From a virus, in the IMG/VR virus record IMGVR_UViG_3300018875_000003, positions 32,001 to 96,000 of that record: a stretch of 64,000 nt of DNA. One strand, given 5' to 3'. Positions 28,101 to 51,095 of the stretch are shown here, in pieces; the stretch's first letter is position 1, and every line of letters starts with the position of its first letter. The position numbers were made by a program, and so were the translations under genes. The notes beneath the pieces are model-generated. The model worked only from the letters and a program-made list of their open reading frames with translations. It ran no database searches and was not told the DNA's origin.

Positions 28101-28667
28101 GAACGTATCTATAGCGAAGATTGCGATGCGATCACATTCAAGCACCAGGCTGCACTCGCTGCACTGGAATTGTCTTACTCTGCTACAGATATCGGCTATG
28201 TATCCTATATGGTGACATATACGGAGCGTGGTAAAGATGGCAACCGCTCGATCAGCTTCCCTTGGGTTGTGGCTAAGAAACAATTCCTGGAGCTGTGCGC
28301 GAAGATTGCTAATCGCGAGATCGTGAAGAATCCTTATCTGGTTCCCGCTTCTGAAATCAAAGCAAACTTCCGTATTGCAGAAGATCCACGCAGCACAGAA
28401 GGCAAACACTATGATGGTATGAAGATGGCTGAGGTTATCAAGCAAGCTGGTTCAATCGAGGTTATGTATACGCTGAACGAGGTAACTGGTGTGTATGGTT
28501 ACGTGGCATTCGTGCCTGTAGGCAGCAGACTGGTATATGTCGGAGATTTCTATCAGGATCAGGTTGCATTCATGACCGGAGCTACCCACTTCGAACTGAA
28601 TGTATCCAATGCAGAAGCAAAAGGACAAGCCATGACCCTGACAGTCTCCAGCGTAGGTCGTAAATAA
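25107..28667 (+). CDS. YonO-like / eukaryotic-RdRP-like single-subunit RNA polymerase
   Basis: Catalytic GADNDGD; GDG.V.AS, WQVR..PFVKG, FRNP, IG..TN and EIDRAKHG motifs in RdRP/YonO order; ATG 25107 after AAAGGGG. Confidence 0.85.
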   Translation: MTTTNNNKQAQINKQLAQVNRLFNQAVKGNKVKAEMSELKSASVILDAIATFPGLGVKTKNYEAITAAMAEGHSLRSIMLNPELTGVAKNQYRYFRAFMDAKGDDIPEMVMAPTRKRVRTVSVDLLKHSRNEAGEVVLNAEVNFQSQSQLADAFGSLAADDKSDLYLDMAHVVYIDLNIADQENQELKDLQVEVVRNGFYYSVDGVTHKANFFIQTASQARQLQGIYIAEDFMTIPQAFKKLGHDFLAYCKLSKDGIYTLDITKYLKRPGLSGTSSVSSKAITFPNARISKLANMTTGEYLVESDRHTMAVIEDRFAKITNGTFKAFYNNRVVTVSAVDGVFTAQWKDGRLTKQEVLPMNYLKLGVGDGLVLASESIYWALKAEHGNDSDAWQVRITPFVKGLMVFVPGLRKYYDADIVAFKSAVKGDFRLIADEEGRLDFNIELRIARFAKRPGKKAEYVELPYQFAHVSSITAEQMINVAAPRLEEARNVLSNPALIQKYTGVAHLEDLSKLTTAEAEFMRDRSLVSVFANFMHYAPFTYEDAYMQTRALQLMGQQVDKWVAGTIPVEGEYRFMVQDPYALLQAVADEDGDMIVPASVGLRPHQTFMTARDNKHFVTGPVASFRNPAIAKGEGRVLKGAAPENYVTASAKGAFNSVCIMSCHDLDTFAEGGADNDGDETFVTQVPEIVNSIMGKDGESKFLAMLDLHVGKDGEWASGCPFPMESDEKLTFGAACVDHDGQFKVKFTADQYDDAFIQAVHELSKEYVIRTLNPNKIGQQTNIATRLADAVRKVGYMYAEGVDEFGQAVDRTEAEKQDLLHEIVRMEEMIDLVRLTQGWEIDRAKHGGAYEEALAAELNFINNPPKYAGFQENPKAKRVWIKQAWLSHHKGTEGGIDTGSVMSRVHNHMKAFVQENVIDKSEEIKNDVENNNIIHVLRSEYAIDANKYEALAAVIRSIRASYTADLMNARNKNAEFNKLAEIKYNGNDHAIRMAKAKIERIYSEDCDAITFKHQAALAALELSYSATDIGYVSYMVTYTERGKDGNRSISFPWVVAKKQFLELCAKIANREIVKNPYLVPASEIKANFRIAEDPRSTEGKHYDGMKMAEVIKQAGSIEVMYTLNEVTGVYGYVAFVPVGSRLVYVGDFYQDQVAFMTGATHFELNVSNAEAKGQAMTLTVSSVGRK

Positions 28668-28689: not shown

Positions 28690-29066
28690 CTGCAGTCGGT
28701 GTGTTCTCAGCACATCGACTGCACCCTTATTATAGCACACCCTTCGGGTAGGTGCTAATGCTATCGACAGACGCCTGCATGCTGCCCTGTGACGCCCTGC
28801 TCCTCTCGCATGACGAATCCTTCGACCGACAAGAAGGAAGCGGCAGACGAGACGACAGGCGGCTTATAGGACGCGTTCTTATGCAGCGGCTTATATATAG
28901 GCAAACTTACGGCAACTCAGCTCGACGGCTGAATCATACGATTATTGCGACCGGTGTGTGAGGGAGCTGCTTCGCACCACGATCGTTGCTGTTATTCGTA
29001 AGCTGAAATATAGCCTGTTTTCCTATATAGTCGATGGCATCATCACCTACCCGAAGGGTGTGCTAT
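28690..29066. ncRNA. Highly structured non-coding element downstream of RNAP
   Basis: Perfect 23-bp inverted repeat 28732-28754/29044-29066 enclosing nested stems. Confidence 0.5.
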
Positions 29067-29115
29067 TCCTGGGCGTATGCGTATTTTGCGTATGTTGCTA
29101 TATGTGTGTGATCGA

Positions 29116-29170
29116 TATCATATATCGTATTTCATACGTTGTATGCTCATTTCATATTTCGTATATCATA
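29116..29170. repeat. Heptad repeat array (TWTCRTA-like)
   Basis: tatcata tatcgta tttcata cgttgta tgctca tttcata tttcgta tatcata. Confidence 0.7.
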
Positions 29171-29277
29171 TGCTATCGAAAGAGGTGAACCCACATCCGA
29201 AAATTTCTTGCTACTTGAGTATGATTTCATATAGCCTATATAGGTATCTTATGATGAAATAGGATGCTGTAGACGAA

Positions 29278-29306
29278 GGTCGCTAACGCTCCTGTGGCTT
29301 TGTGAA
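29278..29306 (+). promoter_or_regulatory. Hairpin-GGCT element copy 1 (candidate phage RNAP promoter)
   Basis: ggtcgcTAACgctcc-tgt-GGCT-ttgTGAa. Confidence 0.55.
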
Positions 29307-29392
29307 TGTGTGTCTTATGAGTATGGCTATATGCTAATCGGACATACGCGAATGACGATAGATATACTATGACTATATAGGGAGATGTATAT

Positions 29393-29689
29393 ATGAGTTA
29401 TCCTGATTGGCAACCTAAGTTTGATTTCAATGACGATCTTGTTTGTATAGAGAGATACTTCGATAATGAGAATGTCGATGATCTGGCTCCATCTATAGAG
29501 ATGGTTGTTGGTAAAGGTATTACTCTAACGTTGATTCCTTCAGCTTTATTCCCTGCATATAGGGTGAACAATGCACAAGGTGAATGTATTGGTCATATTA
29601 GTCGTGAGACATCTCTTTATCTTGTTACTCTATATCCTCGTGCTATGAGTGATGGACAGATTAAGTATCTTCGTTCATTGCGTAAATAG
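29393..29689 (+). CDS. Hypothetical protein
   Basis: 98 aa; GGGAG RBS. Confidence 0.65.
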   Translation: MSYPDWQPKFDFNDDLVCIERYFDNENVDDLAPSIEMVVGKGITLTLIPSALFPAYRVNNAQGECIGHISRETSLYLVTLYPRAMSDGQIKYLRSLRK

Positions 29690-29837
29690 CATATATGATG
29701 ATGGCTATATAGGTTGTTTATGCTATATAGACTTTATATCGTTAGATATATGATTAATAGGATGGCGCTTTGCCTTTTTTTCTTTTGCCAATCCTTTGGA
29801 TCGGCGCTAAAACACTATGCAATGGGGGTTCCATCAC

Positions 29838-30065
29838 ATGGAAGCATTCATCAGGTTCTACGCTAAAGTCAATCCAGGACACTGGGCTTTGGATATTCGT
29901 CATTCGAGTATAGTCGATTGGTCTATCACCGTTGGCTATAAGGCATCGCATCCGAAGTATGGCGAAAGCATTATTCATGTACAGGGTTGGGATGTCGATC
30001 TGGCCTTTGCGAAAGCACAGGTTCAGCTGAAAGAATGGTTGACCGAACATAACGGCGGCTATTGA
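29838..30065 (+). CDS. Hypothetical protein
   Basis: GGGGG RBS before MEAFIRF. Confidence 0.6.
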   Translation: MEAFIRFYAKVNPGHWALDIRHSSIVDWSITVGYKASHPKYGESIIHVQGWDVDLAFAKAQVQLKEWLTEHNGGY

Positions 30066-30090
30066 TTAACTATATAGGAGGATTCATCAT

Positions 30091-30375
30091 ATGAAGAAAA
30101 CGATCGCCATGCGCCAGTCATCCGTATATGGTGCTATATCCAAGATGATTAATGCCATGTCTGGAGATTCTATTCAGTTTCAAACGGCAGTGAAGATGTA
30201 TAAGCGATTTGCTACAGGCTTTGTTCTAAGAGAGAACGAGGTGGCTTTCTTTCTCCGCGAGCTGGTTGATGCTGGTCACTTGCACCTGGAGGTAAACGAT
30301 CAAGGCAAAGAGATGTTGTCGCTCACTCCAGCGGGAGACGAATACCATACCATAAGCTTTGGTGATGACGAATGA
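30091..30375 (+). CDS. Hypothetical protein (possible winged helix)
   Basis: AGGAGG RBS; LVDAGHL..LSLTPAG. Confidence 0.65.
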   Translation: MKKTIAMRQSSVYGAISKMINAMSGDSIQFQTAVKMYKRFATGFVLRENEVAFFLRELVDAGHLHLEVNDQGKEMLSLTPAGDEYHTISFGDDE

Positions 30376-30620
30376 ACGTTTACGATATTGGCATGCACTA
30401 TGATGATATACTGCTGCGTATGAAGGATGTGCGCAGCTATATTCCTGTGCTTATGTCTGGATATAAGGCTCCGTATGATATCGAGGACATTATCCGGGAG
30501 TATGCTGCTAATCCGATGTATGATATGTCTTTGGATGAGTTCCGCAGCCGGTTGAATCTATTATCGTCTATAGTGCGATTAGATTACGATAAGCTTGCGG
30601 CTTCATATGGGATGTCGTAA
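30372..30620 (+). CDS. Hypothetical protein
   Basis: ATGA overlap with upstream gene. Confidence 0.6.
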   Translation: MNVYDIGMHYDDILLRMKDVRSYIPVLMSGYKAPYDIEDIIREYAANPMYDMSLDEFRSRLNLLSSIVRLDYDKLAASYGMS

Positions 30621-30761
30621 TCGTAACGCGTTTCATTTTTTCTTTTGTCTATGTTGATCCAGCTGAATTGCCTCCTACTTTTTTCCGCACTGGTTGGCAG
30701 GCAGGATGGATGGCAGCAAAAGTGATTGATGTTGATTGATTCCAGAAAGGAGGTTCCCGCA

Positions 30762-30932
30762 ATGAGCACAAACTTTAAAGCTATATCGTTTGCTGAGTTT
30801 ATGACGGATGTAATGGGTATAAGCGATAAGCAATACTATGAGATGGATGCCGATCAGCAGCGTAAGATTTTTGACCAGTGGCATTCGCTCACTCAGCTAC
30901 AGTTTGATTTGTGGTCTTCTAAAGTTAATTGA
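30762..30932 (+). CDS. Hypothetical small protein
   Basis: AAGGAGG RBS before MSTNFK. Confidence 0.65.
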   Translation: MSTNFKAISFAEFMTDVMGISDKQYYEMDADQQRKIFDQWHSLTQLQFDLWSSKVN

Positions 30933-30965
30933 TTGGCGTTACATTACGTATAGTGAGGTGGTATC

Positions 30966-31100
30966 ATGATTAAATCACTGGTTTCAATCATTCGAGGTGA
31001 CAATGAGGACATAAGCACTGTCCACCTGTTCGCTTGGCATATTATTGGCGCCATGCTTGCTTCTGCTGTTGCACTTGCTGTCGGTCATACGTTTATATAG
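30966..31100 (+). CDS. 44-aa membrane peptide (not in ORF track)
   Basis: GAGGTGG RBS; C-terminal hydrophobic helix; stop abuts the hammerhead. Confidence 0.55.
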   Translation: MIKSLVSIIRGDNEDISTVHLFAWHIIGAMLASAVALAVGHTFI

Positions 31101-31161
31101 CCGCCTGATGAGTCCCTGGCGTGGGACGAAACCAGAATGTCGTGAGATATGCTGGTCGCGG
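31101..31161 (+). ncRNA. Hammerhead ribozyme (type I topology)
   Basis: ccgc-CUGAUGA-guccc/gggac-GAAA-ccag/cugg-UC^-gcgg; complete core; predicted cleavage after C31157. Confidence 0.9.
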
Positions 31162-31192
31162 ATTGCCGCAGCTTATACAAGGAGGAATGTTT

Positions 31193-31528
31193 ATGCCATT
31201 AAAGCTATATACAGCTCAGTATGCTTATCGTGGTCCGGATCGTGTGGATACCACAGTGAAAAGCAGTGATGGTATCTTTGCGCCGACCTGGGATATTGTC
31301 ATGGGTGTGAAGAAAGGTCGGATCACCGAGCAGCAGTATACGGATGAGTATTATCGTATGATGCGCGATTCATATACCCAGAACTATGACAAATGGATGG
31401 AGCTTCTATCCAGAGATGAGGCGACGATCGTATGCTTCTGTGCGTATGGCCAGTTCTGTCATCGTCATCTACTGAAAGACATGCTTGTTAAATGTGGCGC
31501 CACTTATATGGGCGAACGTGGAAGGTGA
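31193..31528 (+). CDS. DUF488-like protein
   Basis: FAPTWDIV..Y..M..IVCFC..FCHRHLL. Confidence 0.65.
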   Translation: MPLKLYTAQYAYRGPDRVDTTVKSSDGIFAPTWDIVMGVKKGRITEQQYTDEYYRMMRDSYTQNYDKWMELLSRDEATIVCFCAYGQFCHRHLLKDMLVKCGATYMGERGR

Positions 31529-31532
31529 TATC

Positions 31533-31724
31533 ATGGAAATTACACACGAATATGTATCTGGAGAGATCAATAAGCTACTGTCGAAGTATGACTTCCCTAT
31601 TTATGCGCTGCAGGATGTATCCAAGCGGCTGGGTGATTCTGATGACCCAAACTATGCAGCGCAGCAGCTTCGATATTTGCAGAACCTTGTTGGAGCTGGC
31701 TATGCTAAAATGAAGTCTAAATAA
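31533..31724 (+). CDS. Hypothetical protein
   Basis: AAGGTGA RBS; MEITHEY. Confidence 0.6.
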   Translation: MEITHEYVSGEINKLLSKYDFPIYALQDVSKRLGDSDDPNYAAQQLRYLQNLVGAGYAKMKSK

Positions 31725-31741
31725 TCTTATCGGAGGTATAT

Positions 31742-32047
31742 ATGACTAAACAATCTAAAGCATTGAATGCACTCTGCGTTTTGTATCCTCATGCGCGCCC
31801 TGCTGCAGGTGAAGGATACAATATGATCCGTGCTGAGCGTTATGACAACCCTGTTGACTTTCAGAATCTTGTTACCTGTCTTCTTGCTGCGTTCCCCTCT
31901 TCCCTATTCGATCATGCAGATTATGTGGAGGTTAGATTCTCCGCCGACACGATCACAGTGTACACTGGCCACTTCCTGGTTGAGTCTGACGTATATAACG
32001 TTCGATTCCTCTATGAAGCTTCGTACCAGACAGACACTGACTCATGA
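31742..32047 (+). CDS. Hypothetical protein
   Basis: GGAGG RBS; 101 aa. Confidence 0.65.
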   Translation: MTKQSKALNALCVLYPHARPAAGEGYNMIRAERYDNPVDFQNLVTCLLAAFPSSLFDHADYVEVRFSADTITVYTGHFLVESDVYNVRFLYEASYQTDTDS

Positions 32048-32057
32048 GGTGTGCTTT

Positions 32058-32327
32058 ATGGAGCTGATGACTTACTATATCGATAATGCTTATGTGACGC
32101 TGCCTGATATGATCCCTGGTGTCCGATATCAGTTCTTGTATCACCACGACGATCCAGATGCTCGCTATATTGCCGAATATATCGGTCGTGATGATGATAA
32201 ATGGTATCATCGAATGTTGTTCCGTATTATATGGCGAGATGCTGATATACATCGTGAGCAGATGTCTCTGTTCACGAATAAAATCACTCATATCAAGCTA
32301 CATGGTGGTGATGCCGCATGGAACTGA
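32058..32327 (+). CDS. Hypothetical protein
   Basis: GAGGTG RBS; MELMTYY N-terminus. Confidence 0.65.
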   Translation: MELMTYYIDNAYVTLPDMIPGVRYQFLYHHDDPDARYIAEYIGRDDDKWYHRMLFRIIWRDADIHREQMSLFTNKITHIKLHGGDAAWN

Positions 32328-32566
32328 TCAGTCGCTATTGTTTAACCAGAGGTATCGGCGGCGTAACTATCAAAGATCGAAGCTTTGGTTACGGAGATTA
32401 TTTGCGCATCAGGCATGCGGATCTGACAGGCAGCTATGAAACGACAGGTACTCTTGCTCCCTCTATCGATGATCAATATATCATTCTTATAGATGATGAT
32501 GACGATGATATTCATATATGGCGTGGTGATATTAATTATGTTGAGGATCTGTGCAGCCTTTGCTGA
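32318..32566 (+). CDS. Hypothetical protein
   Basis: GGTGA RBS; MELISRY N-terminus. Confidence 0.65.
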   Translation: MELISRYCLTRGIGGVTIKDRSFGYGDYLRIRHADLTGSYETTGTLAPSIDDQYIILIDDDDDDIHIWRGDINYVEDLCSLC

Positions 32567-32651
32567 ACAGGTTCTCTTTTTCTTTTGTCTACCCTTCGGG
32601 CAGACGCGATCGGCGGATGATGCTTCATGTATTCGAATGCAGCATACGAAT

Positions 32652-32680
32652 GGTCGCTAACGCTCCATCGGCTTGACGAT
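32652..32680 (+). promoter_or_regulatory. Hairpin-GGCT element copy 2
   Basis: ggtcgcTAACgctcc-atc-GGCT-tgaCGAt, about 15 nt before a GGAGG RBS. Confidence 0.55.
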
Positions 32681-32708
32681 GACTATTATCCTATTGGAGG
32701 TTTTATAT

Positions 32709-33101
32709 ATGACAACTCAACAAACGCAGGTAACTGAAGAACTCGTTGCAATGATGCTGGATGTCGCTCTGACTCATTATCCGAATGCTCGTAAGGTATC
32801 CAGAAGCTATCTGCTGGATCAGCTGGAAGAGCGTGACGATTCCGGTCCGGATGAAACGAAAGAACAAGCGGTGCAGCGCATCTTCGATTTCCTCGATAGC
32901 GAGTATCGTTATGACTTCAATGCTGCTGGCGATCTGATCTCTCCTCCACTCGTTAAACGCTCTCCAGCCGGCTATTATATTGGACGCGACTATTATGATT
33001 TCGAATTAGGAAGCGAGATGCACTATGAACGTGAATCTGGCTACATGACAGAAGAAGCAGCCAATCGTGCATTTGCATCAGGTGTATGGTGGAGGAGTTA
33101 A
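32709..33101 (+). CDS. Hypothetical protein
   Basis: GGAGG RBS; C-term SPAGYYIG..RESGY..EEAA motif. Confidence 0.7.
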   Translation: MTTQQTQVTEELVAMMLDVALTHYPNARKVSRSYLLDQLEERDDSGPDETKEQAVQRIFDFLDSEYRYDFNAAGDLISPPLVKRSPAGYYIGRDYYDFELGSEMHYERESGYMTEEAANRAFASGVWWRS

Positions 33102-33164
33102 TCCTCCTCCTTCACTTCCTTTAACACTTATCTCACTACATAAACTATTTAGGAGCTGATATTA

Positions 33165-33698
33165 ATGATTAAGTCTATTAAGAAGTATGTTTCTCAGGTG
33201 AAGATGGTTGCTCAGGGTATGATCGATATGCAGAATCCTTTCCGCACCAGCAAGATTGTGGAGATGAACCATTTTGGTGTACAATGCAAAATGCTACATG
33301 ACCCTGCCCTACTTCATAGCAAAGGATATATGGTTGCCGGCGCTATGCGTGTGATTATGGGCGACGTCGTTGAAGATATGATTGTCGTTGATGATCACTT
33401 CTTTGAAATGGATGCTGCCCACCAGCTGGCTATATATTTTCATGAGTTTGGCCACATTCACCTGGAGCATTTGGAACGTCTCGCTTCAGGAGGAAAATAC
33501 GCCAACATGAAGAATCTGTTTAAGCGTTCGGCTGCTGCTATTCATGGTGTGCAAGACATCGAACTTGAAGCGGACCAGTATGCCGCAAGCAAGGTTGGCC
33601 CTGTCATCCTCTCTTCTGCCCTCGAAGCTGTTTCTGCCGTTGTCGGCCCTAAAAATAAGGAGCTGCAAAGACGTATTCGCATTCTCCGCAACCAGTGA
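33165..33698 (+). CDS. Zinc metallopeptidase-like protein
   Basis: HEFGH plus E.EAD.YA and RI..L (M48/ImmA-like). Confidence 0.7.
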   Translation: MIKSIKKYVSQVKMVAQGMIDMQNPFRTSKIVEMNHFGVQCKMLHDPALLHSKGYMVAGAMRVIMGDVVEDMIVVDDHFFEMDAAHQLAIYFHEFGHIHLEHLERLASGGKYANMKNLFKRSAAAIHGVQDIELEADQYAASKVGPVILSSALEAVSAVVGPKNKELQRRIRILRNQ

Positions 33699-33707
33699 GG
33701 TGTCCGT

Positions 33708-33950
33708 ATGGATAAGATCATTCAATCCCTGCACAATGATGCTCCCCTCCATTGCCATAAAACGATTGACTACAGCCAGGATGAGCATGCTGATCAGGTT
33801 GATGATGCTGTCTATTGTGCCGGCGCCTTGGGATATATGGTAAAAGCGAAAGATATCAATCTCCCTATTCGTCTTGGCATAATGTTTGATTTATTCCGTC
33901 CGGACGAGCTTCAGGATCTGGATGATCTCATCGATCCGAAAGAGGAGTGA
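33708..33950 (+). CDS. Hypothetical protein
   Basis: GAGGTG RBS; CHKT..CAG. Confidence 0.6.
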   Translation: MDKIIQSLHNDAPLHCHKTIDYSQDEHADQVDDAVYCAGALGYMVKAKDINLPIRLGIMFDLFRPDELQDLDDLIDPKEE

Positions 33951-33956
33951 TTTTAA

Positions 33957-34376
33957 TTGGAGATTCGCAATGGTTCCCCTGTTATTGGCCACCGTGTTGA
34001 GGTATACGTCAATCTGAATAAGAATGGGTTGTTCAGTATCCTTGACCGGCAGCCAAAGAGCCCCACGTATAACAAAGTTTTAGCGTATGCCGAGCGCGTT
34101 ACATTACGAGAAGCCCGCTCCCGTATCAGTCAAAGCAAGTATGATTCTATTCAGAACAAGAAGCAGCGTGCTGTGTGTGCCATGTTTACTGGAACCCTGG
34201 TTGCTATCGATGAAGCAAAGCCTGCCGGACTTGATGTTGAGGTCCACTATAATCCTTACCGCGCCCGTGAATTTCACACGAATGACGGTCATGTCATTGA
34301 AGAAGCAGATTTGATTCATTTCGAGGATAAGCTGGGCTGGGTTTCCGATCCGGAAGCACCCATGCTGCTATTTTAA
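33957..34376 (+). CDS. Phage hypothetical protein
   Basis: VYVNL..FSI..V.L..YNPY pattern; GGAG RBS. Confidence 0.65.
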   Translation: MEIRNGSPVIGHRVEVYVNLNKNGLFSILDRQPKSPTYNKVLAYAERVTLREARSRISQSKYDSIQNKKQRAVCAMFTGTLVAIDEAKPAGLDVEVHYNPYRAREFHTNDGHVIEEADLIHFEDKLGWVSDPEAPMLLF

Positions 34377-34394
34377 TTTCGGAGGTTATTTATT

Positions 34395-34628
34395 ATGCAA
34401 ACAGCACTACACGAACAGGTTCGCCATGAAGAGATGGTTCCTGGTCATATGTATGAAATCGAAGATGATCGCGGCGGCATCATCCAGGGTAATTATGATC
34501 AGCGTTCAGATTCTATGATTACGCTCAAAAATACGATGTATATTATGCCAAGCGGCTATCACATGCCTTATCCTTCTTGGTGTGTATCTATCCATCGCAT
34601 TGTCAGTTGTAAGAAATTTCATTTTTAG
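34395..34628 (+). CDS. Hypothetical protein
   Basis: GGAGG RBS. Confidence 0.65.
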   Translation: MQTALHEQVRHEEMVPGHMYEIEDDRGGIIQGNYDQRSDSMITLKNTMYIMPSGYHMPYPSWCVSIHRIVSCKKFHF

Positions 34629-34639
34629 GAGGATGCCAT

Positions 34640-34957
34640 ATGACTCAGCGTAAAGGCTTCAATGATTTCTTCACGTTCACCCGAGATGATAAGTTTATTC
34701 AGAATAAGACCTATCTCATTCATCTGATGCAGCTGGTCGAGTCCATGGATGAAAACTGCGATATGTCCGTTACTTCCACCGGTAGGATCCTGATGCTCTT
34801 TTTCGAAGAAGATGGCATGTCTGCACACATCGATGTTAATTTGGACCACATCCTCACCTATATTGATCGGTTACTCAAGCTGCAAGCTCACACTGATTTC
34901 TTCACTACACAAGTTGACCGCGATAAGATATACGAATGCTTCACCATTAACGAATGA
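34640..34957 (+). CDS. Hypothetical protein
   Basis: AGGAGG RBS. Confidence 0.65.
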   Translation: MTQRKGFNDFFTFTRDDKFIQNKTYLIHLMQLVESMDENCDMSVTSTGRILMLFFEEDGMSAHIDVNLDHILTYIDRLLKLQAHTDFFTTQVDRDKIYECFTINE

Positions 34958-34985
34958 AGGCTACCAATCGGTGGCCTTCTTTTTT
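34956..34985 (+). terminator. Intrinsic terminator
   Basis: gaaggctacc-aatc-ggtggccttc + T6. Confidence 0.7.
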
Positions 34986-35012
34986 ATTACACACACTATT
35001 GGAGGGTTTCCC

Positions 35013-35264
35013 ATGAAAATTAGATACGCCGTATTATTCTTTGTTGTCCTGTTCGCGATTGTTGCATTCAAGAACTATGAGCCAGAGCCGCGCTTTGTTG
35101 AATATGTAGTTGGATCCGGCGACACCCTGTGGTCTATCGCAAATCAAAGCGACATCGATACCGACAAACGTGCAATCATCGCATATATGATGGACAAGTC
35201 TCATATCAAGCAAGCTGCTGATCTGCAGCCGGGCATGGTTATTCAGGTGCCGATGCTCAAATGA
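35013..35264 (+). CDS. Membrane-anchored LysM protein (YneA-like)
   Basis: N-terminal TM then YVV.SGDTLWSIA..LQPGMVIQVP. Confidence 0.8.
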   Translation: MKIRYAVLFFVVLFAIVAFKNYEPEPRFVEYVVGSGDTLWSIANQSDIDTDKRAIIAYMMDKSHIKQAADLQPGMVIQVPMLK

Positions 35265-35398
35265 ATACAGCTCATGTGATTTTCATCCTTTGCCTGGTTG
35301 CAGCCACATTTCTTGAGCATTACATAGATAGCAGCACTGATTAATATCTCGCTTTGTATGGCGTTACGTTTATGTTAAAATCGGGGAGCCACGCTCCC

Positions 35399-35456
35399 TA
35401 TTCTGTCTGCGGTTATCCAACCGTACTGATGAGCTGTCGTGCAGCGAAACAGAATA
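35399..35456 (+). ncRNA. Hammerhead ribozyme (type III topology)
   Basis: uauucug-UC^-ugcgguu/aaccgua-CUGAUGA-gcug/cagc-GAAA-cagaaua; predicted cleavage after C35407. Confidence 0.92.
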
Positions 35457-35474
35457 AAACTGGAGGTGTTTCTT

Positions 35475-35963
35475 ATGACACAACTCGAACAAACTAATCG
35501 TGTATTTGATGCTGCTGATTTCCGTGAAGGCATGCAGGAAGAATATGAATTTCAATATACTAATTCCAAGATGTCCGTTTCTACTGCGTTTCAATTGTTG
35601 AATGAACAAGGATGGGAAGTCCATGACGGAGACGTGATCGATGGACTCAAGCGTGCTTTGGCGGATGCCCTTCACTCTGTCATCATGGAGCATATGCTGG
35701 ATGCCTACCAAGTTGTCGATTTCGACCTTTTGTATAGTGACAGCTTTCTTGGCAATCCAGGCGGATACACCGATGAGTATGGTGTCTTCTGGGTCGAAGC
35801 CGAATCGATGTGCCATTACAAAATCGATCATAAGGCTCGCAAATTCACATCCGGTCGCATCAAGCTCAGTGCATCTATCTATAACGATGACGCGAAGCTG
35901 AATGAAATGCTCGGTGCAATCCGGAAGCATGTTGATGATCAAGTCAAAGCACTGAATCTTTAA
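35475..35963 (+). CDS. Hypothetical protein
   Basis: GGAGGTG RBS immediately after the hammerhead. Confidence 0.7.
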   Translation: MTQLEQTNRVFDAADFREGMQEEYEFQYTNSKMSVSTAFQLLNEQGWEVHDGDVIDGLKRALADALHSVIMEHMLDAYQVVDFDLLYSDSFLGNPGGYTDEYGVFWVEAESMCHYKIDHKARKFTSGRIKLSASIYNDDAKLNEMLGAIRKHVDDQVKALNL

Positions 35964-36012
35964 TCCTCGGCGCTCATTACGGGCGCCCATTCCCCTATGG
36001 AGGTTGATTATC

Positions 36013-36300
36013 ATGAAGAAAATCGCATCGTTTATTTATACTCCATTCGAGACTGTGCCTGTGTTCGAAGCGACAGGCACTCTTCTCGATACACATATGT
36101 CTGATGGCGTGCTGCTGGCACTGTTCGATATCCCAGGTGTTTCGAATTGTTATCCGGTGTTCTTTGAGCAGCCGGAAATGATCCACTACATATCCACGTC
36201 CTGCCCTGCGGGTACAACCCTTCTTCTTTCCGGCAGGAACTACACCGACAATGAGTGCCCTCACTTGATTGCGAGCAGATGCTTTACTCTATCGATGTAG
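36013..36300 (+). CDS. Hypothetical protein
   Basis: GGAGG RBS. Confidence 0.6.
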   Translation: MKKIASFIYTPFETVPVFEATGTLLDTHMSDGVLLALFDIPGVSNCYPVFFEQPEMIHYISTSCPAGTTLLLSGRNYTDNECPHLIASRCFTLSM

Positions 36301-36301
36301 C

Positions 36302-36330
36302 GCAGCCTACGGCTGCAGTGGCTTTATGAT
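36302..36330 (+). promoter_or_regulatory. Hairpin-GGCT element copy 3
   Basis: gcagccTACggctgc-agt-GGCT-ttaTGAt, just before a GGGAGG RBS. Confidence 0.55.
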
Positions 36331-36349
36331 ATTATATGGGAGGCGCATT

Positions 36350-36448
36350 ATGCTTAAAGAACGTTTGGCATTTGTCGGATTGGCCCTTGGTTCAATCGCC
36401 TTGTTTATCGCCGTTGTCTTCGGCGTTATGCTTATATTGGCATCGTAG
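36350..36448 (+). CDS. 32-aa hydrophobic peptide (not in ORF track)
   Basis: GGGAGG RBS; MLKERLAFVGLALGSIALFIAVVFGVMLILAS. Confidence 0.6.
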   Translation: MLKERLAFVGLALGSIALFIAVVFGVMLILAS

Positions 36449-36456
36449 GAGGTTCT

Positions 36457-36648
36457 ATGGATTTTTTGTTTTCAACCTTGGCATTCATCTTGTTTGAATC
36501 CATCGGCGTGTGGGGGCTTATCATTTGCCTGCACGATCTGCGCAATCCTTCGATTGGATTCTGGTATAGATTCAAATATACAGGTGTCGTTATTCTTCTG
36601 ATGCTTGTTATCTTCGCTTTTTACTTGTTAGATATTCATACATCATAG
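36457..36648 (+). CDS. Small two-TM protein
   Basis: AGGAGG RBS; two hydrophobic helices. Confidence 0.6.
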   Translation: MDFLFSTLAFILFESIGVWGLIICLHDLRNPSIGFWYRFKYTGVVILLMLVIFAFYLLDIHTS

Positions 36649-36654
36649 GAAGTA

Positions 36655-36717
36655 TTTCATATTTCATACGTTATACGATATATTTCCTACGATGTATGAT
36701 GTATTTCGTATTTCATA
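36655..36717. repeat. Heptad repeat array, 9 in-phase units
   Basis: tttcata tttcata cgttata cgatata tttccta cgatgta tgatgta tttcgta tttcata. Confidence 0.75.
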
Positions 36718-36736
36718 GGATTGGAGGACATATCAT

Positions 36737-36973
36737 ATGAATTTAATCGTAGCTTACCAGAAGTCCATCACTCCCCTCAAACCTGATGTATGGGAAGTCG
36801 GCAAGCGATATGAGATCACTGACAACCATGGCAATCTAGTCTATGGTGATTTTTACGCTGCTCATGGTCGCCAGCTGTGCTTCACTAATTGCTTTTGCGG
36901 AGATGACTACGAACCTGGAGAGTACTTTTATTTCCCGGATGAAATCAAGGAGGCTGTTGTCGTTGACGATTAA
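36737..36973 (+). CDS. Hypothetical protein
   Basis: GGAGG RBS; MNLIVAY. Confidence 0.65.
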   Translation: MNLIVAYQKSITPLKPDVWEVGKRYEITDNHGNLVYGDFYAAHGRQLCFTNCFCGDDYEPGEYFYFPDEIKEAVVVDD

Positions 36974-36974
36974 G

Positions 36975-37412
36975 ATGAATTATAACTTTCAGTTTTACAA
37001 GGAGATTAAGCTCCAGCTGATCCGCCGTGACTATACCGGCTACGATGCCAAGCGTTTTACGCTGAACGGCACCAATCAGAATGTATGGATTCCAAATAAG
37101 CATCTGCTGGAAGACGGCACGATCAAGCAGGATGAGAACATTGATTATGTTTTCAGACGTGCCATCCGTCAGCTGGAGCTTGCTGGATACACCGGCCCGA
37201 TTATCGGCATCAAGCGCACTACCAAGGTCGATCCGATCATCTATGTCCGGCAGCTTACTTGGGATGAGCAGCAGGCGCTCCTCTCCCCTCTCGAAGCCAA
37301 GCTTAAAGAAGAAGGCTTATCGAAACGCAAAATCTATAGGGCGCTTGCTGATGCCAGAGACAGCAAGATTAGTGATATCCAAGACCAATTCCCAAAGGAG
37401 AATGAATTATGA
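36975..37412 (+). CDS. Hypothetical protein
   Basis: ATG right after upstream stop; AKRF..NQNVWIPNKH. Confidence 0.6.
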   Translation: MNYNFQFYKEIKLQLIRRDYTGYDAKRFTLNGTNQNVWIPNKHLLEDGTIKQDENIDYVFRRAIRQLELAGYTGPIIGIKRTTKVDPIIYVRQLTWDEQQALLSPLEAKLKEEGLSKRKIYRALADARDSKISDIQDQFPKENEL

Positions 37413-37852
37413 CTGGACACAATGACTATTTCCGGTTGCGAAAAGTATTCTTAAAGAACTGCACCACCGATCTGCTGGGCGCCAGCAAGGAAACGATCGA
37501 TGACATGATTGCTTATCTTCAGGCAACGCGTGAAATGACGCCGGATGATACTTCCCTTGAAGAGATCATCAAACGATTCTATTGGCGGCACCAGGAGGAA
37601 TACGGCAGCGGCCATATCAATTCGCGGTCGATCACTCTCATTCCCGGGCATCATCTCTATGATGATTTCGTTCTGGCTGCCGGCGATCTGCTGCCAGACG
37701 GGTTTAACTCTCCGGCGCAGCGCGAAGAACGTATCATTCAATTCATCGTTAAATATACACCTGCCTATAGCGAGTTCAATCTGATCGGAACCGAGAACGA
37801 CATCATCATGAAGCAAAGAGTCGATCACGTTCTCTGCCGGTTCAAAGTTTAA
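37409..37852 (+). CDS. Hypothetical protein
   Basis: AAGGAG RBS; ATGA overlap. Confidence 0.65.
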   Translation: MTGHNDYFRLRKVFLKNCTTDLLGASKETIDDMIAYLQATREMTPDDTSLEEIIKRFYWRHQEEYGSGHINSRSITLIPGHHLYDDFVLAAGDLLPDGFNSPAQREERIIQFIVKYTPAYSEFNLIGTENDIIMKQRVDHVLCRFKV

Positions 37853-37868
37853 TCCAATACGAAATCTC

Positions 37869-37900
37869 AGGTCTGCTCTTTCGAGGGCAGGCCTTTTTTT
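37869..37900 (+). terminator. Intrinsic terminator
   Basis: aggtctgctc-tttc-gagggcaggcct + T tract. Confidence 0.75.
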
Positions 37901-37916
37901 GTATGCAAAGGAGGAA

Positions 37917-38069
37917 ATGAGTATGTCCCAACCTACTGTTCTTGATGATCCGGAGTTCCAAACCATGCAATGGGGGTTCGATCCCACCGGTTACGAGCAG
38001 GATGTCGATTCTTACAAATTATGCGGCTGCGAACATGACGAATTTTGTCTTGAATGTGTGCCATTTTAG
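37917..38069 (+). CDS. 50-aa Cys-containing peptide (not in ORF track)
   Basis: AAGGAGG RBS; C-term CGCEHDEFCLECVPF. Confidence 0.55.
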   Translation: MSMSQPTVLDDPEFQTMQWGFDPTGYEQDVDSYKLCGCEHDEFCLECVPF

Positions 38070-38080
38070 GAGGATATGTC

Positions 38081-38320
38081 ATGGAGAAATTTATCATCAT
38101 CGATCGCAATGATCGACAGATTTTGCACGGTCCGCAGCACTTGCTGGTGGACACTTTAAAGGAGCTGGGTACGCATCCAGACTTCTTTTACGACTACTTC
38201 AGCGGCTTGGATGATCAAGACTACCAGGAGCTGTACGACAGCACGGTGTCGGAGTTGTCCGATGAATTTAAAATTGTGGAGGTTAACGATGAACATTTAT
38301 ACGTCTGTGAGCGGTATTGA
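38081..38320 (+). CDS. Hypothetical acidic protein
   Basis: AGGAGG RBS. Confidence 0.65.
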   Translation: MEKFIIIDRNDRQILHGPQHLLVDTLKELGTHPDFFYDYFSGLDDQDYQELYDSTVSELSDEFKIVEVNDEHLYVCERY

Positions 38321-38576
38321 TCTACAGGATCGAATCTACTTTCTCCAGAAGACATTTCTACCGATTCAACTCAATGTGGATTTGATTCGGGCGGACACCC
38401 TGCATCTGCAGGATAAGGATGACGAGGCTGCCGAGCTGGTCGGCAAGATCGAGGAAGAATGCGCAAAGCTGGGCATTAAGATCTATCAGCCGATGCCGAT
38501 CAGCATGAAGTCCGGCGAAGCTTATCGGCAGAACGCTGTCCAGTGTTACGAGGCGCAAACGAAAATTGACGCATAA
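38289..38576 (+). CDS. Hypothetical protein
   Basis: GGAGG RBS before MNIYTS. Confidence 0.6.
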   Translation: MNIYTSVSGIDLQDRIYFLQKTFLPIQLNVDLIRADTLHLQDKDDEAAELVGKIEEECAKLGIKIYQPMPISMKSGEAYRQNAVQCYEAQTKIDA

Positions 38577-38643
38577 AGTCGGCTTGGCGACTATAAATAG
38601 GCCTTTGGCCAAGCGCGGGCTCCCGGGTCGTCGGGAGTATGGC
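38577..38643 (+). ncRNA. Pistol-like ribozyme
   Basis: P1 AGUCG/CGACU; loop GCUUGG pairs with CCAAGC (pseudoknot); AUAAAUAG linker; P2 GCC/GGC; GCG; P3 GCUCCCG/CGGGAGU. Confidence 0.78.
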
Positions 38644-38674
38644 AACACATACTATTCCAAACGAGGTGCTTACT

Positions 38675-38887
38675 ATGAATAACAACGAAATTGTACGCTA
38701 TTTTATGAAACCTATTCAGAATAACTTCGCTCTTGTCGTGGCAACCCGCAGCAAGGGCGATATCACGATCGAAGAAGGCGCGAAGCCTTTTGTGAAAGGT
38801 CGTTACACGATGTATGCCAAGAATCGTCAGGCCCTCGAATCGAGAGTCCATGAGGTGCTGTCTCAGCAAGATCCTTTCGCTTCTTGA
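38675..38887 (+). CDS. Hypothetical protein
   Basis: GAGGTG RBS just after the pistol motif. Confidence 0.65.
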   Translation: MNNNEIVRYFMKPIQNNFALVVATRSKGDITIEEGAKPFVKGRYTMYAKNRQALESRVHEVLSQQDPFAS

Positions 38888-39252: not shown

Positions 39253-39281
39253 TTGTAATGCGTTACATTCTACATTAGAAT
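39253..39281 (+). promoter_or_regulatory. SigA-type promoter overlapped by operator TGTAATGCGTTACA
   Basis: TTGTAA-17-TAGAAT; operator 39254-39267. Confidence 0.6.
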
Positions 39282-39317: not shown

Positions 39318-39701
39318 ATGACTAATATTCCAGTAACACCAGCAGCATCCACAGGCGAAGCGCATACTTACGAAAGAAGATGCGATGTATGCAGCCAGGT
39401 TAAAGAGCTTCACGTCCGAGCATCCAGCTGCGGCCCAATCTCGTTCGCATACTGCGTAGAATGCCTTCAGAAGGGCGCAGAGCCTTACGGGGCACTAGCA
39501 GCCTACCTATCGCAAGTCGTGGACAAGGGAAGCGATCTGGAGCCGGATAAGAACATGATTCATCCCGGATACCAGCAGCTTATCGATGTGACCCTGGAAG
39601 TTGTCGGCAAGACTCGTGAAGAGTTCTATGCAGCTGTCGATAAAGATATCCAAGACTATATCGACTTCATGAATAACCTTGATGAGGAGTCTGTGGAATA
39701 A
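39318..39701 (+). CDS. Zn-finger hypothetical protein
   Basis: CDVC..ASSCGPISFAYCVEC..GAEPY. Confidence 0.7.
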   Translation: MTNIPVTPAASTGEAHTYERRCDVCSQVKELHVRASSCGPISFAYCVECLQKGAEPYGALAAYLSQVVDKGSDLEPDKNMIHPGYQQLIDVTLEVVGKTREEFYAAVDKDIQDYIDFMNNLDEESVE

Positions 39702-40222
39702 TGTATCTGGTGCAATATAAAGACCAGACCAGCTATGGCGAACTCAAAGTTTCTATCTGCAAAGATCAGTACGAAGTAGAACAGATGTGGAATCTTGATG
39801 ATTCCGCCCTGGACATGATCGACGTCAGAGAAGTGGATGAATACTTCCGCGTTGTTGTTGCCGGCTCTCGTCATTTCAAAGACTACGATCGCCTTTCCCG
39901 TGAACTCGATTACCTACTGCAGTTCAAAAAGAACGCGATCATCGTATCCGGAAACGCAGAAGGAGCAGACAAGCTTGGTGAGCAATATGCCAGGGATCGA
40001 GATCTGCTGATCGATACGTATATTCCAGATTGGCGCCCTCAAGGTCCAAAAGGCCCGTATGATAATGCTGCTGGTCATAAACGCAATCGTGAGATGGCAG
40101 ACAATGCCGATGCTGCCGTAATCTTCTGGGATGGTGTTAGCCGTGGATCGGAAGGCATGATCAATTATTGCAAGCGTATTGGCCTTGATCACAGAGTTAT
40201 TAAATATAATCTTGCAATGTAA
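39701..40222 (+). CDS. SLOG-family (DUF2493/YspA-like) protein
   Basis: VVAGSRHF, VSGNAEGAD, AG..RN.EM, FWDG.SRG. Confidence 0.8.
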   Translation: MYLVQYKDQTSYGELKVSICKDQYEVEQMWNLDDSALDMIDVREVDEYFRVVVAGSRHFKDYDRLSRELDYLLQFKKNAIIVSGNAEGADKLGEQYARDRDLLIDTYIPDWRPQGPKGPYDNAAGHKRNREMADNADAAVIFWDGVSRGSEGMINYCKRIGLDHRVIKYNLAM

Positions 40223-41140: not shown

Positions 41141-41170
41141 GCAGTCTAACGACTGCACAGGCTTCTTGAT
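41141..41170 (+). promoter_or_regulatory. Hairpin-GGCT element copy 4
   Basis: gcagtcTAACgactgc-aca-GGCT-tctTGAt, about 20 nt before an RBS. Confidence 0.55.
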
Positions 41171-41204
41171 AAAAATAAAACATACACTTGGAGGAATACA
41201 CACT

Positions 41205-41534: not shown

Positions 41535-41669
41535 TTCATATATCATATGAAATATTAAATACGAAATACGATCTTGGTCTATATCATACGATATAGGCCT
41601 TTTTCGTATGTAATTCTTCATATCATATGATATATGAAATATGTTATACGATATAGATCATATATCATA
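41534..41669. repeat. Heptad repeat array (two blocks)
   Basis: attcata tatcata tgaaata ttaaata cgaaata ... tatcata tgatata tgaaata tgttata cgatata gatcata tatcata. Confidence 0.75.
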
Positions 41670-51058: not shown

Positions 51059-51095
51059 AAGCTACGACAACCGAACAAAGCGAGGTGGAAACAGA

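What the first reader, a model, noticed from the sequence alone, without database searches (positions are those of the whole stretch)
31101..38643. Cluster of three self-cleaving ribozymes punctuating the early-gene region
Seen: two complete hammerheads and one pistol-like motif within 7.5 kb, all on the coding strand and each ending 5-20 nt before the next RBS; two begin directly after a stop codon. Inference: the phage may cut its early transcripts with ribozymes, analogous to RNase III processing of T7 early mRNA, giving 5'-OH/cyclic-phosphate ends that could alter stability or translation. Two ribozyme classes in the same positional role suggests selection.
Basis: partly seen in the sequence, partly recalled or inferred. 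Interest (0 to 1): 0.85.

Follow-up and report, generated by a model that had tools for sequence, protein, structure and literature searches.

The report
Three self-cutting RNAs between phage genes
Two hammerhead ribozymes and one pistol ribozyme really do sit between small genes of this large uncultured phage and probably cut its messenger RNAs, but this layout has been described in phages since 2011 and its purpose is still untested.

Summary
Rfam models find a pistol ribozyme at 38577-38644 (49.1 bits, above the curated cut-off). They also find a type III hammerhead at 35400-35455 (44.2 bits, cut-off 48.5) and a type I hammerhead at 31099-31163 (29.7 bits, cut-off 34). All three lie on the coding strand, in gaps between genes, and end 6-18 nt before the next ribosome-binding site. 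The type I hammerhead and the pistol start at a stop codon. Nothing else in the 117-kb virus record matches any Rfam family at E <= 1.

The only syntenic relative I could fetch is a complete 206-kb phage. It keeps the pistol and the type III hammerhead at the same junctions, 88-91% identical, while the flanks diverge and the neighbouring genes differ. It lacks the type I hammerhead and the DUF488 gene behind it.

The most likely function is cis-cleavage of phage transcripts at these junctions. No RNA data exist, and "early" is not shown. Terminators and possible promoters lie between the ribozymes, so this is not one punctuated operon.

The arrangement is published (Perreault 2011; Harris 2015). 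This scan has noted it on other DNA before (248 notes). This case is a sparse new example of a known kind.

The parts
30966..31100 (+). 44-aa ORF (hydrophobic C-terminal half) whose TAG stop (31098-31100) abuts or overlaps the type I hammerhead
   Evidence: No Pfam or PHROG match.
31099..31163 (+). Type I hammerhead. Stem I is CCGC 31101-04 with GCGG 31158-61. The core is CUGAUGA, stem II is GUCCC/GGGAC and GAAA follows. Stem III is ACCAG...CUGGU with a 22-nt insert. The predicted cut is after GUC, between 31157 and 31158.
   Evidence: RF00163 at 29.7 bits, E 1.3e-6. The free-energy fold gives the three-way junction. Sequence.
31158..31169 (+). GCGG-AUUG-CCGC hairpin that would form at the very 5' end of the downstream cleavage product. 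It re-uses the 3' strand of stem I.
   Evidence: Fold of the 3' product. Its role is inferred.
31193..31528 (+). DUF488-N3a gene (111 aa) with RBS AAGGAGG at 31179-31185. The leader after cleavage would be 35 nt.
   Evidence: PF22751 E 7.3e-10. phrog_2450 E 1.5e-27. The exact 111-aa product is on record in the protein collection.
34956..34979 (+). Intrinsic-terminator-like hairpin plus T run, 33 nt before the LysM gene start
   Evidence: A counterpart lies before the LysM gene of the relative, at L006:1069-1093.
35013..35264 (+). Small LysM-domain membrane protein gene upstream of the type III hammerhead
   Evidence: PF01476 E 8.4e-08. Homologue in G001 at 56% identity.
35355..35381 (+). Possible extended -10 promoter (TTGTAT, 16 nt, TAAAAT, with TG before the -10) overlapping an operator-like half-palindrome. 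It is read by eye, is not listed by the scan, and is absent from the relative.
   Evidence: Sequence. Not among the sites. In G001 the LysM stop lies 16 nt before the hammerhead.
35383..35399 (+). G/C hairpin directly 5' of the type III hammerhead. It is kept in the relative with a different sequence.
   Evidence: 9 of 17 columns are identical, yet both copies fold.
35400..35455 (+). Type III hammerhead. Stem III is AUUCUGU/ACAGAAU. Stem I is a closed hairpin at 35408-35425 and stem II a closed hairpin at 35433-35445. The predicted cut is after GUC, between 35407 and 35408.
   Evidence: RF00008 at 44.2 bits, E 2.2e-06. Free-energy fold. Homologue in G001 at 42.7 bits.
35475..35963 (+). 162-aa gene of unknown function with RBS GGAGGTG at 35462-35468. 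The leader after cleavage would be 67 nt, of which 48 nt are the ribozyme body.
   Evidence: No Pfam or PHROG match. Absent from G001.
37869..37894 (+). Intrinsic-terminator-like hairpin plus T run, about 680 nt upstream of the pistol
   Evidence: A counterpart in the relative lies at L006:2174-2200, about 700 nt before its pistol.
38289..38576 (+). 95-aa gene whose TAA stop (38574-38576) is directly followed by the pistol
   Evidence: Homologue in G001 at 57% identity.
38577..38644 (+). Pistol ribozyme. P1 is 38577-80 with 38589-92. The pseudoknot is 38582-88 with 38608-14 (7 pairs). P2 is 38601-03 with 38641-43. P3 is 38619-25 with 38632-38. The two-nucleotide junction is A38639-U38640, and the predicted cut lies between them.
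   Evidence: RF02679 at 49.1 bits, above the gathering score of 34.5. Pair counts. Homologue in G001 at 47.3 bits.
38675..38887 (+). 70-aa gene of unknown function with RBS GAGGTG at 38663-38668. The leader after cleavage would be 35 nt.
   Evidence: 78% identical in G001 over residues 1-63.

Best explanation
These are three genuine small self-cleaving ribozymes: a type I hammerhead, a type III hammerhead and a pistol. They are encoded on the sense strand in three intergenic gaps of the rightward small-gene arm of an uncultured phage of roughly 210 kb. Its distant similarities are to phages of Bacillus.

WHAT FOLLOWS FROM THE CHEMISTRY. When a transcript runs through a gap, the ribozyme folds and cuts itself by internal transesterification. 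This chemistry is established for both classes. The predicted cuts are after C31157, C35407 and A38639.

The upstream RNA then ends in a 2',3'-cyclic phosphate behind a compact structure. That structure is the ribozyme body for the type I hammerhead and the pistol, and a G/C hairpin for the type III hammerhead. The downstream RNA starts with a 5'-OH, 35, 67 and 35 nt before the next start codon. For both hammerheads a hairpin sits at its first nucleotide.

WHAT IS INFERRED. The cut uncouples the fate of neighbouring cistrons, in stability and perhaps in translation, without needing a host RNase.

SHOWN VERSUS NOT SHOWN. The motifs, their positions and the conservation of two of them are shown here. 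Cleavage itself, and any effect on expression, is inferred.
For: - Model matches. Pistol 49.1 bits, above the cut-off. Type III hammerhead 44.2 bits, E 2.2e-06. Type I hammerhead 29.7 bits, E 1.3e-6.
- Hammerhead core nucleotides (CUGAUGA, GAAA, GUC) are all present, and the helices form in unconstrained folds.
- The pistol has P1, P2, P3, a 7-pair pseudoknot and the two-nucleotide junction. 41 of 42 pair cells are standard pairs across the two phages.
- The three sites are the only ribozyme matches in 116,980 bases.
- A complete syntenic phage, G001 (RNA polymerase 80% identical), keeps the pistol and the type III hammerhead at the same junctions.
- In that phage the changes lie in loops, apart from one compensatory C-G to U-A change in pistol P2. 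The flanks are largely unalignable.
- The gene upstream of the pistol and the gene downstream of the hammerhead differ between the two phages.
- DNA contigs about 90% identical from two other runs cover all three sites. Among the 40 difference rows shown, 18 fall in 30986-31101, none in 31102-31212 and 18 in 31213-31469.
- The literature proposes the same role for such clusters. It also shows in vitro and heterologous in vivo cleavage for comparable prophage hammerheads (PMC3088659, passages).
Against: - Both hammerheads score below Rfam's curated cut-offs (29.7 against 34; 44.2 against 48.5).
- No RNA data bear on cleavage.
- The region is not one operon. Terminator-like sites lie at 34956-34979 and 37869-37894, and possible internal promoters exist.
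- Only 3 of about 8 gaps of 60 nt or more in the block, and 3 of about 22 in the whole arm, hold a ribozyme.
- The type I hammerhead is missing from G001, so it is dispensable for this phage type. Its stem I has only 4 standard pairs next to the core, and no tertiary contact was demonstrated.
- The pistol has U where the Rfam consensus has a well-conserved A (model position 30), and A rather than G before the cut. Harris 2015 says the junction identity varies. I found no statement on position 30.
- The covariation evidence rests on two sequences and one pair. 237 of 500 shuffles do as well.
- Predicted access to the ribosome-binding site is unchanged by cleavage: 0.44 to 0.56, 0.46 to 0.45 and 0.50 to 0.49.
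- In Bacillus subtilis a ribozyme-made 5'-OH end is an entry site for RNase J1 (PMC3997798). Cleavage could therefore lower rather than preserve downstream expression.
- 1082 of the 1122 difference rows were not shown.
Confidence: 0.6

Rival explanations
1. The ribozymes act as built-in down-tuners. In a Bacillus-type host the 5'-OH end left by cleavage is attacked by the 5'-3' exonuclease RNase J1, as for the glmS mRNA. The cut would then lower expression of the downstream gene relative to the upstream one (discoordinate expression) rather than producing stable single-gene messages.
For: RNase J1 degrades the 5'-OH product of glmS ribozyme cleavage in B. subtilis (review PMC3997798, passages). 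The pistol's 3' product has an unstructured 5' end in the fold. Similarity to Bacillus phages suggests such a host.
Against: The 3' products of both hammerheads begin with a hairpin at nucleotide 1. From recalled knowledge of 5'-terminal stem-loops, this is expected to hinder 5' exonucleases. The host is not known. Nothing was measured.
Confidence: 0.2
2. The ribozymes are passengers. They would be small, self-contained modules that travel with gene cassettes or persist at cassette borders in mosaic phage genomes, cleave or not, and give the phage little benefit.
For: The type I hammerhead lies in a 2.1-kb block (29393-31528) with no homologue in G001. Gene content differs right beside both conserved ribozymes. 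Unrelated viral contigs carry arrays of hammerheads with the same stem II (L013 and L014, four each).
Against: The pistol and the type III hammerhead are kept at 88-91% identity between phages whose neighbouring proteins are 56-78% identical and whose flanks do not align. Differences avoid the cores. Mosaic breaks are common across the whole region (about 9 blocks of window genes have no G001 hit), so a break next to a ribozyme is not special.
Confidence: 0.12
3. Pairs of ribozymes excise a defined RNA, for example the 3.2-kb stretch from the type III hammerhead to the pistol. Its 5'-OH and 2',3'-cyclic phosphate ends are then joined into a circle or spliced by an RtcB-type ligase.
For: The end chemistry of both classes matches RtcB substrates (established chemistry). 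Perreault 2011 raised the possibility.
Against: No RtcB (PF01139) or RNA ligase (PF09414) match, and only a 13.1-bit sub-threshold P-loop kinase (PF13671) match, in the 116,980-bp record, which is 59% complete. A terminator-like site lies between the two ribozymes. Perreault 2011 looked for circular or spliced products and reports finding none.
Confidence: 0.03
4. The hammerhead matches are chance look-alikes, and only the pistol is real.
For: Both hammerheads are below Rfam's gathering scores. The bare core pattern occurs at chance frequency.
Against: E-values are 2.2e-06 and 1.3e-6. The cores are complete with all three helices. The type III copy is retained in G001 with changes only in loops. 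Both lie in intergenic gaps on the coding strand.
Confidence: 0.03

Closest known systems
Clustered hammerhead ribozymes flanking single genes or short gene blocks in prophages (Perreault et al. 2011, PMC3088659; passages read)
   Same: Several self-cleaving ribozymes lie close together on the coding strand between phage genes of varying identity. Processing of long phage transcripts is the proposed role.
   Different: Two ribozyme classes are mixed here. The density is low (3 in 7.5 kb). Terminator-like sites lie between them. The element is a large uncultured virus record, not a prophage.
Pistol ribozyme class (Rfam RF02679; Harris et al. 2015, PMC4604425, passages read; Weinberg et al. 2015, recalled only because the paper is not held)
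   Same: P1, P2, P3, a pseudoknot and a two-nucleotide junction. It occurs near phage genes of Firmicutes-type elements. It scores above the gathering cut-off.
   Different: The junction reads AU, not GU. Model position 30 is U, not A. Both variants are shared with the relative G001.
Type I and type III hammerhead ribozymes (Rfam RF00163, RF00008)
   Same: All core nucleotides, the GUC cleavage triplet and the three helices are present.
   Different: Scores are 4.3 bits below each curated cut-off. The type I copy has a 22-nt insert in stem III and a stem I of only 4 standard pairs.
glmS ribozyme of Bacillus subtilis (review PMC3997798)
   Same: A cis-cleaving ribozyme in a leader, whose 5'-OH product decides the fate of the downstream mRNA.
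   Different: glmS is metabolite-activated and belongs to a different class. No ligand pocket or switch is evident here.
RNase III processing of T7 early mRNA
   Same: Intercistronic cuts in a phage polycistronic RNA.
   Different: That process uses a host protein enzyme and gives 5'-phosphate and 3'-OH ends. Here the RNA would cut itself and give 5'-OH and cyclic phosphate ends.

Membership tests
Pistol ribozyme (RF02679) | Score at or above Rfam's gathering cut-off over the full model | tested here: met
   49.1 bits against 34.5, model positions 1-68 of 68.
Pistol ribozyme (RF02679) | P1, P2 and P3, plus a pseudoknot between the P1 loop and the internal segment | tested here: met
   21 pairs were named. 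41 of 42 cells are standard pairs in the window plus G001. The pseudoknot has 7 of 7 pairs in both.
Pistol ribozyme (RF02679) | Junction of exactly two nucleotides between P3 and P2, carrying the cleavage site (Harris 2015: identity varies, length strictly conserved) | tested here: met
   A38639-U38640 in the Infernal alignment. The statement is from PMC4604425.
Pistol ribozyme (RF02679) | Highly conserved nucleotides, including the active-site purine and the G-C-G segment that the review calls purine 32, G33, G40, C41 and G42 | tested here: inconclusive
   The upper-case consensus positions match, except model position 30 (A to U) and position 63 (G to A). The mapping of the review's numbering (PMC6154101) onto the Rfam columns is my own.
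Pistol ribozyme (RF02679) | Mg2+-dependent self-cleavage | not testable with these tools
   Needs an in vitro transcription and cleavage assay.
Hammerhead ribozyme, type III (RF00008) | Core CUGANGA, GAAA, cleavage triplet UH, and A15.1-U16.1 | tested here: met
   CUGAUGA at 35426-32, GAAA at 35446-49, GUC at 35405-07.
Hammerhead ribozyme, type III (RF00008) | Three helices, with stems I and II closed and stem III open | tested here: met
   The unconstrained fold gives 7, 7 and 5 pairs. The Infernal alignment shows no non-standard pair.
Hammerhead ribozyme, type III (RF00008) | Rfam gathering score | tested here: not met
   44.2 bits against 48.5 (E 2.2e-06). G001's copy scores 42.7 bits.
Hammerhead ribozyme, type I (RF00163) | Core CUGANGA, GAAA, cleavage triplet UH, and A15.1-U16.1 | tested here: met
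   CUGAUGA at 31105-11, GAAA at 31128-31, GUC at 31155-57.
Hammerhead ribozyme, type I (RF00163) | Three helices, with stem I open | tested here: met
   The fold gives 4 pairs in stem I, 5 in stem II and 5 plus 5 in stem III. The Infernal alignment flags one non-standard pair in the outer part of stem I.
Hammerhead ribozyme, type I (RF00163) | Rfam gathering score | tested here: not met
   29.7 bits against 34 (E 1.3e-6 for the record).
Hammerhead ribozyme, type I (RF00163) | Tertiary contact between stem I and loop II, needed for fast cleavage at cellular Mg2+ | tested here: inconclusive
   By eye, loop II UGGC could pair with GCCG at 31165-68. No relative differs in this stretch in the rows shown, so there is no covariation to test it.
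Ribozyme clusters flanking phage genes (Perreault 2011) | Two or more self-cleaving ribozymes close together, in sense orientation, between phage genes | tested here: met
   Three in 7.5 kb, all on the + strand and in gaps.
Ribozyme clusters flanking phage genes (Perreault 2011) | The ribozymes lie on one continuous transcript | tested here: inconclusive
   Terminator-like sites lie between them. There are no RNA data.

The most novel reading that the evidence does not exclude
Both phages share a repeated unit. It consists of a strong terminator-like hairpin with no room for a promoter behind it, then one to three small read-through genes, then a ribozyme, then the next gene. The window has the terminators at 34956-34979 and 37869-37894; G001 has them at L006:1069-1093 and 2174-2200.

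In addition, the 3' products of both hammerheads begin exactly with a hairpin, and for the type I copy that hairpin re-uses the stem I strand.

The boldest reading not excluded has three parts:
- This is a protein-free expression-setting device.
- The terminator sets how many polymerases pass.
- The ribozyme then insulates the downstream message from its upstream history and gives it a hairpin-capped 5'-OH end that host 5'-end-dependent decay (RNase J1, RppH) cannot use. The product-trapping hairpin would make the cut irreversible.
Probability: 0.12. Interest if true: 0.55.

Novelty: new member of a known kind. Interest (0 to 1): 0.3.

Why it matters
What small self-cleaving ribozymes do in bacteria and phages is still an open question. 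The 2019 review (PMC6765202) says more work is needed to define their purpose.

This locus adds a clean small case. It has three ribozymes of two classes with exactly predictable cut sites, and two of them are kept at the same junctions in a diverged relative while the neighbouring genes change. That makes it a usable test bed for asking whether cleavage stabilises or destabilises the flanking cistrons in a Bacillus-type host.

It does not change what is known about the arrangement itself.

Tried and rejected
RNA EVIDENCE. The look-up of sequencing runs listed no RNA holder, so expression and RNA ends could not be examined. Read laying could use only DNA contigs.

WIDER COMPARATIVE SET.
- Single-protein scans of viral contigs with the DUF488 protein and with the 162-aa protein found no relative.
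- The 70-aa protein and the 139-aa alignment each found only G001.
- Exact patterns for the type III hammerhead and the pistol found only G001.
- The type I core pattern found five unrelated contigs, which I did not follow.
- Two scans each of metagenome contigs and genome contigs found nothing.
- The search for homologous proteins on the 162-aa protein found only its own cluster.
- The 'phages' collection has no near DNA match. Its only distant match is 146-183 nt, within window 37045-37227, to Bacillus phages.
- It has no protein match for the 70-aa protein or the RNA polymerase.
- The DUF488 protein matches only phages of Gram-negative hosts, at under 60% identity.

UNMASKING OF THE RIBOSOME-BINDING SITE BY CLEAVAGE. 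Rejected as unsupported.

RNA REPAIR OR LIGATION GENES. None found in the record.

RIBOZYMES AS RECOMBINATION BORDERS. Considered and dropped, because mosaic breaks are frequent everywhere in the region.

LITERATURE SEARCHES.
- 'DUF488' with 'ribozyme': 0 papers.
- 'hammerhead ribozyme' with 'jumbo phage': 2 irrelevant papers.
- 'self-cleaving ribozyme', 'phage', 'mRNA processing', 'operon' from 2019 on: 4 papers, none on phage biology.
- Weinberg 2015 is not held. What I say of it is recalled, or taken from Harris 2015.
- I asked for no supplements. The supplements of Perreault 2011 may list similar loci.

Full report
WHAT IS THERE

The window is bases 32001-96000 of a 116,980-base virus record that CheckV rates 59% complete.

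A search of the whole window against Rfam at the curated cut-offs gives one match, a pistol ribozyme at 38577-38644 on the + strand (49.1 bits, cut-off 34.5).

At E <= 1 there are four matches:
- the pistol;
- a type III hammerhead at 35400-35455 (44.2 bits, cut-off 48.5, E 2.2e-06);
- a poor type III fit at 31079-31137 (24.8 bits);
- an irrelevant microRNA model on an AT-rich repeat.

The third ribozyme is in fact a type I hammerhead. The type I model matches 31099-31163 at 29.7 bits (cut-off 34), with E 1.3e-6 for the record.

The other 56,980 bases of the record have no Rfam match at E <= 1, and there are no tRNA genes. All ribozyme signal in 117 kb therefore lies in one 7.5-kb stretch.

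ANATOMY

Type I hammerhead:
- The stop TAG of a 44-aa ORF lies at 31098-31100.
- Stem I is CCGC 31101-04 with GCGG 31158-61. The model adds an A-U pair and one mismatch outside it.
- The core is CUGAUGA, stem II is GUCCC/GGGAC, and GAAA follows.
- Stem III is ACCAG/CUGGU, extended by a second helix. This 22-nt insert costs score.
- The cleavage triplet is GUC at 31155-57.
- The cut would leave a downstream RNA starting at G31158. Its first 12 nt fold as GCGG-AUUG-CCGC.
- That RNA would have a 35-nt leader before the ATG at 31193 of a DUF488-N3a gene.

Type III hammerhead:
- Stem III has 7 pairs, with GUC at 35405-07.
- Stems I and II are closed hairpins.
- The core nucleotides are all present.
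- A G/C hairpin at 35383-35399 abuts it on the 5' side.
- The ribosome-binding site starts 6 nt after the ribozyme ends, and the ATG is at 35475.

Pistol:
- It starts at the base after the stop TAA 38574-76.
- It has P1, a 7-pair pseudoknot, a 3-pair P2, a 7-pair P3 and the two-nucleotide junction A38639-U38640.
- The next gene starts at 38675.
- Harris et al. 2015 state that the identity of the junction nucleotides varies while its length is strictly conserved (PMC4604425), so AU is acceptable.
- One well-conserved consensus A (model position 30) is U here, and I could not evaluate that.

CHANCE

The bare core pattern is not informative: 6 matches against 4.53 expected. The helices, the model E-values and the placement are what make the case.

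SURROUNDINGS

My rough gene map shows an all-plus-strand arm from a large RNA-polymerase-like gene at 25005-28667 to the window's end. That gene was noted by earlier readers of this scan. It has no Pfam match and is 80% identical in G001.

The arm has about 70 ORFs. From 29.3 to 38.9 kb these are small genes of unknown function. Beyond that come SNF2 helicase, RecA, ThiF, radical-SAM and AAA genes.

About 22 gaps in the arm are 60 nt or longer, and three hold ribozymes. Within the 29.3-38.9 kb block the figure is 3 of about 8.

Two strong terminator-like hairpins lie between the ribozymes, at 34956-34979 and 37869-37894. Each is followed within 45 nt by the next gene's ribosome-binding site, with no room for a promoter.

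A possible extended -10 promoter with an operator-like half-site lies just before the hairpin and the type III hammerhead (35355-35381, by eye). The scan does not list it, and the relative lacks it.

"One early operon punctuated by ribozymes" is therefore not what the sequence shows, and nothing tested here says the block is early.

RELATIVES

Only one relative could be read: G001, a complete 206,307-base viral record that is syntenic across the arm. It has a pistol (47.3 bits) and a type III hammerhead (42.7 bits) at the corresponding junctions. It has no type I hammerhead, and 38 kb of its arm has no other Rfam match at E <= 1.

Pistol:
- 60 of 68 columns are identical, against 5 of 19 upstream and 17 of 32 in the leader.
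- The differences are the P3 loop and closing pair, plus one compensatory C-G to U-A change in P2.
- With two sequences this single pair is not statistically meaningful (237 of 500 shuffles do as well).

Type III hammerhead:
- 52 of 57 columns are identical, against 19 of 43 and 16 of 35 in the flanks.
- All the differences lie in the distal ends of stems I and II: the loops and one loop-closing pair of stem I.
- The hairpin before it is kept as a structure with a different sequence.

Gene neighbours change between the two phages:
- G001 has an extra 83-aa gene before the pistol.
- G001 lacks the three genes 35475-36448 after the hammerhead.
- In G001 the LysM stop lies 16 nt before the hammerhead, against 135 nt in the window.
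- In both phages the pistol starts at the stop codon of whatever gene precedes it.

The 2.1-kb block 29393-31528, which holds the type I hammerhead and the DUF488 gene, is absent from G001.

DNA contigs about 90% identical from two other runs (one is a 212-kb contig) cover all three sites. In the 40 difference rows shown out of 1122, none falls between 31102 and 31212, while 18 fall on each side. The one change at the ribozyme's edge, C31101T, keeps a wobble pair. This is suggestive only, because most rows were not shown and the contigs could not be fetched.

MECHANISM

What is shown is the motifs, their positions and the conservation of two of them.

What follows from the established chemistry of these classes is a cut that leaves a 2',3'-cyclic phosphate on the upstream RNA and a 5'-OH on the downstream RNA.

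What is inferred is that this separates the fates of neighbouring cistrons.

The direction of the effect is open. In B. subtilis the 5'-OH made by the glmS ribozyme is an entry site for RNase J1 (PMC3997798). That would argue for down-tuning of the downstream gene. Against this, both hammerhead 3' products start with a hairpin, whereas the pistol's does not.

Folding shows no change in access to the ribosome-binding site. The record has no RtcB or RNA ligase match, and only a 13.1-bit sub-threshold match to the P-loop kinase family, so ligation or circle formation has no support.

WHAT IS KNOWN

Perreault et al. 2011 described multiple hammerheads flanking single genes or short gene blocks in prophages. 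They proposed processing of long phage transcripts and showed cleavage for some (PMC3088659).

Harris et al. 2015 note that pistols lie near phage genes, and that the class was found by searching near ribozyme-associated genes (PMC4604425).

The 2019 review says the purpose is still undefined (PMC6765202).

This scan's own index holds 248 notes with the same key words in at least 220 genomes. Several followed-up cases are far denser, with six to ten ribozymes per operon.

VERDICT

This is a new and rather sparse member of a known kind. Its modest interest lies in the two-class conservation across changing neighbours and in the terminator-genes-ribozyme unit shared by both phages.

Noticed in passing
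window 39253-39281, about 44790-44830, about 50960-51060, about 56610-56640, about 59990-60020; weaker copies at 30933-30965 and 35355-35372: A palindromic TGTAACG(C/T)(G/A)TTACA-like box overlaps sigma-A-type promoter hexamers ahead of several gene blocks. It looks like an operator for one phage repressor.
   Followed up: no
window about 29270-29300, 32661-32690, 36320-36335, 41155-41175, 43206-43230, 52586-52615; G001 at L017 about 18300-18280 (minus strand): A recurring motif (ACGCTCC, 3-4 nt, GGCT, then T-rich TGA) lies 20-40 nt before start codons and is kept in the relative phage.
   Followed up: partly
window 28950-29390, 29690-29760, 36649-36736, 41535-41660: Dense AT-rich short repeats (TCATAT / TCGTAT / ATATCATA units) lie in intergenic DNA. 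They draw spurious microRNA-model hits (mir-135, mir-944). They may be iterons or protein-binding arrays.
   Followed up: no
window 34956-35012 and 37869-37922; L006:1069-1127 and 2174-2200: Strong terminator-like hairpins are followed at once by the next gene's ribosome-binding site, with no promoter space. This holds in both phages, so the genes behind them would depend on read-through.
   Followed up: partly
window 31193-31528 and 39701-40222: A DUF488-N3a protein lies behind the type I hammerhead. Its phage relatives are mostly in jumbo phages of Gram-negative hosts. A YAcAr/SLOG-family protein (PF10686) lies about 1 kb after the pistol.
   Followed up: partly
L013:9603-11435 and L014:6625-8240 (other viral contigs): Each holds four hammerhead cores with the same stem II as the window's type I copy within about 2 kb. 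These are probably dense ribozyme arrays in unrelated phages.
   Followed up: no
whole record: The window's record is 117 kb and rated 59% complete. Contigs carrying identical or 90%-identical proteins reach 206-213 kb, so the phage is probably a jumbo phage of about 210 kb.
   Followed up: partly
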